Below, one piece after another: positions 52,731 through 54,111 of a stretch of 64,000 nucleotides of DNA. The position numbers and the translations under genes were made by a program. Position 1 is the stretch's first letter. Every line of letters starts with the position of its first letter. This DNA is from Octopus sinensis (taxonomy: Eukaryota). The notes under the pieces were generated by a model that did not search any database, was not told where the DNA came from, and worked only from the letters and a program-made list of their open reading frames with translations. The DNA lies in the NCBI RefSeq assembly GCF_006345805.1, contig NC_043003.1:38626001-38690000 (forward strand), read 5' to 3'.

Positions 52731-52775
52731 GATGAAACCACTCAAAATCTGGCGTGTGATTGAGTGGATTTCATC

Positions 52776-52870
52776 CAGATAGTCTTGGCTGACGAGCTAC
52801 AAATGGATTTTTTTGTAAGTAATATTACATTTAATCATTAATAGCGAAACAATTGTCCCAAAATAATCTG
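52776..52870 (+). ncRNA. Type I hammerhead ribozyme, unit 1 (predicted cut after C52857)
   Basis: CAGATAGTCTTGG-CTGACGA-GCTA..TAGC-GAAAC-AATT-GTC-CCAAAATAATCTG. Confidence 0.85.
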
Positions 52871-53308
52871 TATTTTTGTTATTTTTTACTTGCCCTGTAC
52901 GTGTGAGCTAACAGTCGTACTGGCTTTCATGGAAACATGTATCTTCGTGGTTGAAACTTTTGGATTAACTGGTGTGCTAGAGTGAGCAATATATTGACCA
53001 CTCTCTTATATTTGTTTTGTAAAAGTATTGTTTAATATGTATAAAATATTATAATAATCCAGGTTTCTCGTAGCACTAGGCCACTTGGTGTTGAATAAAT
53101 ATACTATTAAATTAGTATCTAATTCTCTCACCCTTATATTAAAATTTATAATTATGCTGCATTTATTTCTAAATGCTGTATCTGTTTTCCGTGAAAGTTT
53201 GCGCGCTGTTGGTTGGGGCATTTGAATTATAACGTCGGATGTAATCAATTGAACACACGCGTATTTATCGTTATGGTAAAATCTGGCGTGTGATGAGTGG
53301 ATTTCATC

Positions 53309-53404
53309 CAGATAGTCTTGGCTGACGAGCTACAAATGGATTTTTTTGTAAGTAATATTACATTTAATTCATTAATAGCGAAACAATTGTCCCAAAATAA
53401 TCTG
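53309..53404 (+). ncRNA. Type I hammerhead ribozyme, unit 2 (predicted cut after C53391)
   Basis: CTGACGA at 53322-53328, GAAAC at 53380-53384, GTC at 53389-53391. Confidence 0.85.
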
Positions 53405-53839
53405 TATTTTTGTTATTTTTTACTTGCCCTGTACGTGTGAGCTAACAGTCGTACTGGCTTTCATGGGAAACATGTATCTTCGTGGTTGAAACCTTTTGGA
53501 TTAACTGGTGCTAGAGTGAGCAATATATTGACCACTCTCTATATGTGTTTGTAAAAGTATTGTAATATGTTATAAAATATTATAATAATCCAGGTTTCTC
53601 GTAGCACTAGGCCACTTGGTGTTGAATAAATATACTATAAATTAGTATCTAATTCTCTCACCCTTATTAATTAATTATAATTATGCTGCATTATTTCTAA
53701 ATGCTGTATCTGTTTTCCGTGAAAGTTTGGCGCGCTGTTGGTTGGGGCATTTGAATTATAACGTCGGATGTAATCAATTGAACCACACGCGTATTTATCG
53801 TTATGGTAAAATCTGGCGTGTGATTGAGTGGATTTCATC

Positions 53840-53934
53840 CAGATAGTCTTGGCTGACGAGCTACAAATGGATTTTTTGTAAGTAATATTACATTTAATTC
53901 ATTAATAGCGAAACAATTGTCCCAAAATAATCTG
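53840..53934 (+). ncRNA. Type I hammerhead ribozyme, unit 3 (predicted cut after C53921)
   Basis: CTGACGA at 53853-53859, GAAAC at 53910-53914, GTC at 53919-53921. Confidence 0.85.
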
Positions 53935-54111
53935 TATTTTTGTTATTTTTTACTTGCCCTGTACGTGTGAGCTAACAGTCGTACTGGCTTTCATGGGAAA
54001 CATGTATCTTCGTGGTTGAAACCTTTTGGATTAACTGGTGCTAGAGTGAGCAATATATTGACCACTCTCTTATATTTGTTTTATATATATATATATATAC
54101 ACGAGGTGGGG

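What the first reader, a model, noticed from the sequence alone, without database searches (positions are those of the whole stretch)
52745..54082. Large retrozyme-like array: 530-534 nt non-coding monomers, each punctuated by a hammerhead ribozyme
Seen: three near-identical head-to-tail units, the third partial, with no credible ORF. Each has a complete type I hammerhead core: CUGACGA, GAAA, GUC cleavage triplet, a 13-bp stem I with two mismatches and one GU pair, and GCUA/UAGC stem II. Predicted cuts at 52857, 53391 and 53921 would release 534- and 530-nt monomers. Established: metazoan non-LTR retrozymes are tandem type I hammerhead repeats, processed to monomers and circular RNAs, and proposed to be mobilised by Penelope-like elements; reported monomers are mostly a few hundred nt. 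Inference: this is a cephalopod retrozyme family with an unusually large monomer, copied by reverse transcription round a circular RNA (2.5 turns, ending mid-unit). I am not aware of a description of it.
Basis: partly seen in the sequence, partly recalled or inferred. Interest (0 to 1): 0.9.

Follow-up and report, generated by a model that had tools for sequence, protein, structure and literature searches.

The report
Two-armed octopus hammerhead retrozyme family
A young, non-coding jumping RNA element with a self-cleaving ribozyme, whose many copies carry the insertion footprint of Penelope-like retrotransposons so regularly that they show how such elements are probably copied into the genome.

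Summary
The insertion is head-to-head, in (TA)n, and belongs to a dispersed family (547 exact ribozyme cores; 2,405 matches to a second motif). The size is ordinary for retrozymes (51-972 bp reported). What is unusual is the insertion geometry. Outer ends fall at two fixed monomer positions, A and B, about 130 nt apart. In 57 of 57 two-armed insertions with both ends at these sites, one arm ends at A and the other at B. Both arms share a haplotype in 30 of 33 loci (6.9 expected). 122 of 148 arms run through the ribozyme cut, and 13 of 56 pairs cannot be fold-back copies. An ORF-bearing Hydra-type Penelope-like element in the same genome shows the same A/B geometry. Best reading: a non-autonomous retrozyme copied by a Penelope-like RT-endonuclease priming both target strands at two internal RNA sites, probably on one circular RNA. 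Cleavage, the circle and the partner are inferred, not shown. Known kind, new variant, useful for an open mechanism.

The parts
52358..52744 (-).
   Evidence: carries the same locus-private allele (157A) as the three + strand units
52635..52730 (-). Type I hammerhead of the inverted arm; predicted cut after 52648
52358..52487 (-). About 130-nt tail between site A and site B, here at the outer end of the inverted arm
   Evidence: boundaries +/- a few bases, blurred by TA
52745..53277 (+). Monomer 1; the head-to-head junction lies at 52744/52745
52776..52870 (+). Type I hammerhead 1; predicted cut after 52857
53278..53807 (+). Monomer 2 (internal site A near 53550, site B near 53679)
53309..53404 (+). 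Type I hammerhead 2; predicted cut after 53391; stem III palindrome ACAAUUGU
53808..54081 (+). Partial monomer 3, ending at fixed site A
53840..53934 (+). Type I hammerhead 3; predicted cut after 53921
52328..52361 (.). Left half of the (TA)n target
54082..54099 (.). Right half of the (TA)n target

Best explanation
A non-autonomous, Penelope-like-element (PLE)-dependent retrozyme. Steps: (1) tandem copies are transcribed (inferred); (2) hammerheads, probably pairing as dimers through the stem III palindrome, cut out a 535-nt monomer that is ligated to a circle, in which the core folds into an inactive form (inferred); (3) a PLE RT-GIY-YIG protein supplied in trans, most likely of the Hydra clade, binds the 130-nt tail and makes staggered nicks in (TA)n (target and short duplications shown; protein inferred); (4) each nicked strand primes its own cDNA, one at site A and one at site B (two fixed ends, strict pairing and non-nested arms shown; priming inferred from the in vitro work on Poseidon); (5) both run back along the same template, through the former cut, for up to 10 or more turns (read-through and shared haplotype shown; one molecule and circularity inferred); (6) the two cDNA ends are joined at variable points, giving the head-to-head insertion (geometry shown). 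Odds by step: PLE mobilisation with two primings 0.85; circular template 0.6; Hydra-clade partner 0.5.
For: 89 distinct insertions examined in three differently chosen sets: 57 two-armed with both ends at A or B, all A+B, none A+A or B+B (0.5^57 if independent). 141 of 149 3' ends run into TA-rich sequence. GC-containing words shared across the two flanks in 18 of 84 loci against 3.9 shuffled, max 9 in 200. Arms share haplotype in 30 of 33 loci against 6.9, max 15 in 10,000 permutations; six locus-private alleles in five loci are in every covering monomer of both arms. 1 of 148 inner ends within 5 nt of the cut, 3.0 expected; 122 of 148 arms pass it; 233 of 271 cut sites exact. 13 of 56 arm pairs are not nested either way. 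Hammerhead stems covary across three families 70-81% alike: 99% of cells paired, 6 pairs changed on both sides. Two ORF-bearing elements with RWK, DKT and CxCX5C motifs have the same kind of hammerhead and A+B ends about 120 nt apart in (TA)n. Two internal RT start sites, nicking of both strands and a predicted dimer are reported for Poseidon (PMC11167929).
Against: No cleavage, circle or strand-specific RNA shown. The predicted monomer fold puts the core in an inactive form 5.6 kcal/mol below the active one, and 8 of 9 Xenopus retrozyme dimers did not cleave in vitro. For Poseidon, uncut RNA was the dominant substrate and no reads ended at the cut. The partner was not found: the Hydra-type family matches the unit only over 43 nt at 77%, the Neptune-like family not at all. 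27 of 89 insertions look single-armed; 3 have a second end at neither site. 16 of 60 inner junctions lie within 25 nt of the same monomer position, 5.7 expected, which fold-back also predicts. L060 has mixed haplotypes, and L059 and L064 differ at 1-2 sites between arms. Shared haplotype could also come from two RNAs of one source locus. 13 of 40 loci carry the reference haplotype and some arms share few informative sites.
Confidence: 0.6

Rival explanations
1. Same PLE twin priming at A and B, but the template is an uncut multimeric transcript of a source array; arrays are kept uniform and regrown by DNA-level processes such as unequal crossover or conversion. The hammerhead is then an inherited pLTR feature, not needed for mobility.
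For: Uncut RNA was the dominant substrate for Poseidon and ribozyme mutants still inserted. Long arrays exist that could serve as sources (about 9 kb at C1:95.54 Mb). Read-through of the cut and shared haplotypes are equally expected. Local tandem amplification is proposed in the 2026 preprint. The monomer hammerhead is predicted to misfold.
Against: 19 haplotypes in 40 loci, with alleles present in all covering pieces of a locus in 69 of 81 cases: each new allele needs a one-monomer bottleneck and regrowth in both arms. Loci with monomers identical to each other already hold 5-6 units. Linear copying alone only shortens arrays. Hammerhead stems covary across families. No strong pile-up of inner ends at one start site (10-bin chi-square p = 0.066 for all arms, though p = 0.011 for long arms).
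Confidence: 0.26
2. One cDNA is primed, then folds back or self-primes and copies itself to make the inverted arm; the endonuclease resolves the intermediate at the other end of the tail (self-priming model of PMC3846280; EN-mediated resolution of PMC8557442).
For: Explains the shared haplotype without assuming one RNA for two enzymes; excess of near-in-phase junctions, 16 of 60 against 5.7, including one perfect palindrome, L081; 43 of 56 pairs are nested; model stated.
Against: 13 of 56 pairs are not nested either way, and in L092, L105 and L120 the two arms share no sequence at all; nesting has no fixed direction, 28 against 15. 44 of 60 junctions are more than 25 nt out of phase. Two RT start sites were measured directly for Poseidon.
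Confidence: 0.08
3. These are 5'-truncated pLTR ends of an ordinary autonomous PLE, later expanded locally into minisatellites; the unit has no life cycle of its own.
For: pLTR-to-retrozyme origin by local amplification is proposed; only about 89 of several hundred or more loci were read, so an ORF-linked copy may exist.
Against: In every multi-unit arm the sequence upstream of a hammerhead is the previous monomer, not an ORF end; nested subfamilies of the 535-nt unit itself, 83-100% alike, are spread over many chromosomes; sister families keep a roughly 500-nt period.
Confidence: 0.05
4. The tandem or inverted structure is an assembly artefact.
For: Monomers differ by indel-type errors; two fetched insertions were near-duplicates of neighbours with the same flanks.
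Against: Same architecture at dozens of unlinked loci with locus-private alleles; the head-to-tail joint stands in contigs of 4 of 4 laid runs from 4 studies.
Confidence: 0.01

Closest known systems
Metazoan non-LTR retrozymes (Cervera and de la Pena 2020, PMC7229834; Li, Clavereau and Pollet 2026, bioRxiv 10.64898/2026.07.22.740005)
   Same: Non-coding, low-GC tandem repeats with one type I hammerhead per unit, strongly self-paired monomer, dispersed multimers, size inside the reported 51-972 bp range, co-occurrence with PLEs.
   Different: The passages read do not describe head-to-head arms, two fixed 3' ends, (TA)n targeting or haplotype sharing ('inverted' and 'head-to' occur 0 times in the 2020 text). 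PLE mobilisation is there argued from co-occurrence and pLTR similarity; here from the insertion footprint. No cephalopod was covered. Cleavage and circles were shown there for some species, not here.
EN+ Penelope-like elements: inverted 5'-truncated copy, pLTR and tail (PMC8557442, PMC3846280); Poseidon of Anolis in vitro (PMC11167929)
   Same: Head-to-head inverted arms, variable 5' truncation, tail at one end, short target duplications, AT-rich target, hammerhead with palindromic helix III near the 3' end, two RT start sites bounding the tail.
   Different: No ORF; arms are multimers of one short unit; tail about 130 nt rather than 30-40; the tail is described there as optional or often at one end only, here it is at exactly one end in 57 of 57 resolved two-armed cases.
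Hydra-clade PLEs (PMC8557442)
   Same: (TA)n insertion and canonical hammerheads; an element with RWK, DKT and CxCX5C motifs in this genome has the same stem III palindrome, a long stem II and A+B ends about 120 nt apart.
   Different: The retrozyme shares only 43 nt at 77% with that family; its tail does not align, so this family is a model for the partner, not shown to be it.
MRC1 and other non-autonomous Chlamys elements (PMC8557442)
   Same: Non-autonomous PLE derivatives with multicopy head-to-tail insertions.
   Different: Green algal; Chlamys mostly lack canonical hammerheads; they resemble their autonomous partners at the 3' end, which could not be shown here.

Membership tests
Non-LTR retrozyme | Tandem repeats with a type I hammerhead in every unit | tested here: met
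   Rfam does not detect it
Non-LTR retrozyme | Non-coding, low GC, no LTR | tested here: met
   longest stop-free stretch 58 codons sense, 87 antisense; region GC 0.345; PBS and PPT were not searched for
Non-LTR retrozyme | Dispersed multi-locus family, dimers to multimers | tested here: met
Non-LTR retrozyme | Monomer size in the known range | tested here: met
   535 nt against 51-972 bp; above the 150-450 bp of the 2020 paper
Non-LTR retrozyme | Self-cleavage | not testable with these tools
   structure conserved; monomer predicted misfolded, dimer helix -6.4 kcal/mol
Non-LTR retrozyme | Expressed as linear and circular monomer RNA | tested here: inconclusive
   laid runs are contigs and only guessed to be RNA; a head-to-tail joint fits a circle or a tandem
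PLE-mobilised element | Inverted 5'-truncated copy, head-to-head | tested here: met
   61 of 89 insertions two-armed, leaving out the contig-end locus
PLE-mobilised element | Two fixed 3' ends bounding a tail | tested here: met
   146 of 148 arms end in the A or B coordinate range; two of these (L072, L118) are not true A ends by sequence
PLE-mobilised element | AT-rich or microsatellite target with short duplication | tested here: met
   141 of 149 ends; 18 of 84 against 3.9, some of the 18 being false positives
PLE-mobilised element | Sequence similarity to the pLTR of an autonomous partner | tested here: inconclusive
   none with the Neptune-like family; 43 nt at 77% with the Hydra-type family; other PLE families not surveyed
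Autonomous PLE (ordinary pLTR) | RT plus GIY-YIG ORF contiguous with the repeat | tested here: not met
   no contiguous ORF in the fetched loci; the three tblastn hits (L043, L047, L080) lie apart from the arms; the probe was a Neptune-like protein that detects Hydra-type RT only weakly

The most novel reading that the evidence does not exclude
PLE integration is an obligately asymmetric twin-priming reaction: one RT-endonuclease dimer grips the tail of a single RNA, here a ribozyme-made circle, primes both target strands at the two ends of the tail and rolls two cDNAs round the same template, which then join. This would explain retrozyme multimers, the PLE inverted arm and the one-sided tail in one step, and would remove the need for separate second-strand priming. 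This family and its sister families would be natural read-outs of that reaction, parasitic on Hydra-clade PLEs.
Probability: 0.4. Interest if true: 0.8.

Novelty: new variant of a known kind. Interest (0 to 1): 0.6.

Why it matters
Two questions are stated as open in the papers read: which enzyme mobilises animal retrozymes (PLEs are called a strong candidate; mechanisms remain to be elucidated), and how PLEs make their tandem and inverted structures and the tail. This family is young, abundant, short and polymorphic enough to constrain both from genome sequence alone: it ties a retrozyme to the PLE footprint, turns the 'optional' tail into a strict one-of-each rule, links both arms to one template lineage and rules out simple fold-back for part of the loci. 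It gives a 535-nt substrate with defined start sites for an existing in vitro assay. If the A>G/T>C excess in run contigs is editing, these hairpin-forming insertions also feed cephalopod ADAR activity.

Tried and rejected
Rfam at gathering and E<=5: no hammerhead family; only hairpin-driven miRNA matches below threshold from the inverted repeat. Unusual size: rejected. Partner hunt: the window's Neptune-like PLE and 11 further copies share nothing with the unit; a tight hammerhead pattern gave one unrelated locus; the site-B motif led only to older subfamilies; loose ends of run contigs and a looser pattern led to sister non-coding families 2, 3 and 5, not to an ORF. The idea that site B is the relic of a Hydra ORF start: the fetched Hydra-type copies lack that junction, and the FxNY-like reading at site B against FxYS-like N-termini of relatives is too short to count. 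Sequencing runs: no RNA holder listed. No spliced joint at the conserved GTAAGT in 4 runs of contigs, which shows nothing. Junction microhomology: resolved exactly in only 24 of 62 junctions; 8 of 20 non-insert junctions have 2 nt or more against 18.5% (p = 0.02), weak; the BLAST-overlap version is inflated and discarded. Negative correlation of arm lengths discarded as a selection effect. Pfam gave no above-threshold hit for the Hydra-type frames. The sigma-70 scan is irrelevant to an animal genome. Earlier findings of this scan: nothing.

Full report
Observation. Self-comparison adds an inverted partial copy at 52358-52744, 97% identical, abutting unit 1. The whole insertion is 52358-54081, head-to-head, with (TA)n on both sides. 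Stem III is two pairs closed by AAUU, so that ACAAUUGU is a perfect palindrome; this weak palindromic helix III is the usual metazoan type I form thought to work as a dimer (PMC4209133, passages). Rfam does not find the ribozyme. The palindrome gives a self-duplex of -6.4 kcal/mol, while the lone hammerhead is predicted to fold 5.6 kcal/mol more stably into a form that pairs the core with the cleavage site, also in the circle.

Family. The genome is 2.72 Gb in 13,516 contigs; the search scored 40 of 860 candidates and gave 241 matches, the 150 listed being 94-100% identical. A 21-nt core motif occurs 547 times exactly, control 0; a 24-nt motif further on occurs 2,405 times at up to 3 mismatches, control 5. 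As reference I used a natural 535-nt monomer present in 9 exact copies at three loci. Copies form nested subfamilies from 100% down to about 83%. 20 public runs under three organism labels hold the sequence, and the head-to-tail joint stands in contigs of 4 of 4 laid runs, so it is no assembly artefact.

Fixed, paired ends. I read 89 distinct insertions: 40 best BLAST loci including the window, 29 picked by position after dropping two near-duplicates (L075 and the second L073 copy), and 20 picked. Outer 3' ends fall at monomer position about 275 (A) or about 404 (B). classes 58 as A+B by coordinates; I moved L072 out because its right end is not at A. That leaves 57 two-armed insertions with both ends at these sites, all A+B, none A+A or B+B. 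The rest: 27 apparently single-armed (18 B, 9 A; L094 shows a roughly 20-nt B arm by eye), 3 with B plus an end elsewhere (L072, L087, L118), L121 running beyond the fetched stretch, and L046 at a contig end. Independent choice would give about 5e-18. The third set was selected through a site-B motif, which favours B but does not exclude B+B. 141 of 149 3' ends run into TA-rich sequence. Where the tract is imperfect, 8-15-bp duplications show (L064, L074, L077, L110, L114): 18 of 84 loci against 3.9 in shuffles, a few of the 18 being false because they include the element's last letters.

Template. Neither end is the ribozyme cut (after position 115). Inner 5' ends are spread round the monomer; 1 of 148 is within 5 nt of the cut, 3.0 expected; 122 of 148 arms pass the cut, and 233 of 271 cut sites are exact, most others differing by one base in a run. 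A linear cut monomer is therefore not the template. In the first set the two arms have the same haplotype in 30 of 33 loci, against 6.9 in 10,000 permutations (max 15); six alleles seen at one locus only are present in every covering monomer of both arms, among them 157A in the window. There are 19 haplotypes in 40 loci and alleles are all-or-none in 69 of 81 locus cases; 5 of the 12 exceptions are L060. This points to repeated one-monomer bottlenecks, as a circle would give, but two RNAs from one uniform source locus, or DNA-level homogenisation, cannot be excluded. Arms reach 5,340 bp.

Two primings, not fold-back. Self-priming has been proposed for head-to-head PLE structures (PMC3846280, passages). 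It requires one arm to be a copy of part of the other. In 13 of 56 pairs neither arm is nested in the other, and in L092, L105 and L120 they share no sequence; nesting otherwise goes both ways, 28 and 15 (L060 and unresolved loci left out). Against my reading, 16 of 60 junctions join the arms within 25 nt of the same monomer position, 5.7 expected. That may be fold-back in a minority, or one RT catching up with the other on a shared circle, since such arms often differ by whole turns (inference).

Relatives. Loose ends of run contigs led to family 2, 70-81% alike over its aligned parts, and a looser hammerhead pattern with 1,864 matches, control 5, to family 3, with a 503-nt period, and a more distant family 5. 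All end at the homologous A and B sites. Across 15 hammerheads of families 1-3, 99% of cells pair and 6 of 20 pairs change on both sides, with the core and stem III unchanged; this is three lineages only, and I drew the structure from these sequences. The same search gave an autonomous family: L186 and L187 hold RT and endonuclease frames, in two pieces each, with the RWK, DKT and CxCX5C motifs that define Hydra-clade PLEs, 34-40% identical to six database proteins. Its head-to-head insertions also carry one short and one long end about 120 nt apart in (TA)n: 7 of 7 distinct pairs resolved by script, an eighth (L172) by eye, and one locus (L167) not a simple pair. It matches the retrozyme over only 43 nt at 77%, so the actual partner is unidentified. 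The Neptune-like family in the window shows no similarity.

Expression. No holder is on record as RNA. In the contigs laid, A>G plus T>C make up 79 of 92, 97 of 107, 34 of 46 and 14 of 29 changed places, against 7 of 27 places among genomic copies. This looks like A-to-I hyper-editing of the hairpin that inverted arms would form (established knowledge of ADAR, recalled), but alleles of other animals can mimic editing and matched DNA is lacking; I treat it as a hint.

What is known. Non-LTR retrozymes and their proposed circular intermediates: PMC7229834 (passages), where PLEs are called a strong candidate mobiliser. The 2026 preprint 10.64898/2026.07.22.740005 (parts 1-3 of 5; its supplements were not seen and could list families of this kind, though its sample had no mollusc) derives retrozymes from pLTRs, reports 51-972 bp and proposes local amplification. 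Inverted arms and a 30-40-bp tail often at one end: PMC8557442 (passages) and PMC3846280. Two internal RT start sites, nicking of both strands, a predicted dimer, and uncut RNA as main substrate: PMC11167929 (parts 1-2 of 4). Searches for retrozyme plus octopus, hammerhead ribozyme plus cephalopod and for the combined architecture listed no description of this family or of a strict pairing rule; I judged most hits from the listing only, and the library lacks most subscription papers and repeat databases.

Verdict. It works like a non-LTR retrozyme riding a PLE, and meets every membership feature that could be tested except a matched partner; cleavage and circles are untested. The size is not novel. 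The value lies in the footprint: a strict one-of-each tail rule, one template lineage for both arms, read-through of the cut and non-nested arms, which together favour twin priming by an asymmetric PLE dimer, probably on one circular RNA. New variant of a known kind; interest 0.6.

Noticed in passing
window 7204-7307 (-): U6 snRNA match, 102.8 bits; gene or retrocopy not determined.
   Followed up: no
window 21754-23340 (-): 528-codon open frame of a Neptune-like PLE (RT, CxxxxCxxC-type linker, endonuclease-like end); the family has 22,518 candidate places and many open frames at about 90% identity, with its own short hammerhead-like motif downstream.
   Followed up: partly
L186 (G000:C1:67110600-67116100) and L187 (G000:C1:96243200-96248300): Hydra-type PLEs with asparagine-rich inserts between RT and endonuclease, like those reported for rotifer Penelope elements; abundant family with a tail of about 120 nt.
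   Followed up: partly
L060:3534-5701: One arm alternates two haplotypes and twice jumps from monomer position 271 (site A) to 420, skipping the tail; may record a template switch or a chimeric dimer circle. L142 (family 2) also has a tail deletion before its B end.
   Followed up: partly
L134-L143, L174-L185, L149, L188, L189: Sister non-coding hammerhead families 2, 3 and 5 with the same A and B ends; the arms seen are under two monomers long, unlike family 1. Why only family 1 makes long arrays is unexplained.
   Followed up: partly
window 53346-53351 and equivalents: A GTAAGT (GTGAGT in family 3) donor-like hexamer is kept in the stem II extension of families 1-3, followed after the cut by a pyrimidine tract and AG; PLE pLTRs are known to hold introns. 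No spliced joint seen.
   Followed up: partly
window 53725-53760: TTTGGCGCGC and TTTGAA resemble E2F and CHR cell-cycle promoter motifs (names recalled); partly kept in families 2 and 3; chance not tested.
   Followed up: no
runs X1, X16, X6, X7 on L031:4490-5024: Strong A>G and T>C excess in contigs, resembling ADAR hyper-editing.
   Followed up: partly
window 51540-51770, 54875-54985, 55074-55240: Other short TA-flanked pieces that look like PLE ends; 55074-55240 has a hammerhead-like motif on the minus strand, and 54875-54985 ends like family 5.
   Followed up: no
window 420-642, 6026-6322, 6775-6990: Self-inverted elements of 200-300 bp, probably MITE-like or head-to-head remnants.
   Followed up: no
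G000:C1:95539730-95548803 (L121): Array of about 9 kb, the longest seen, of an older subfamily.
   Followed up: partly
L073, L074/L075, L154-L156: Whole insertions repeated with the same flanks a few kb apart: local duplications or assembly redundancy.
   Followed up: no
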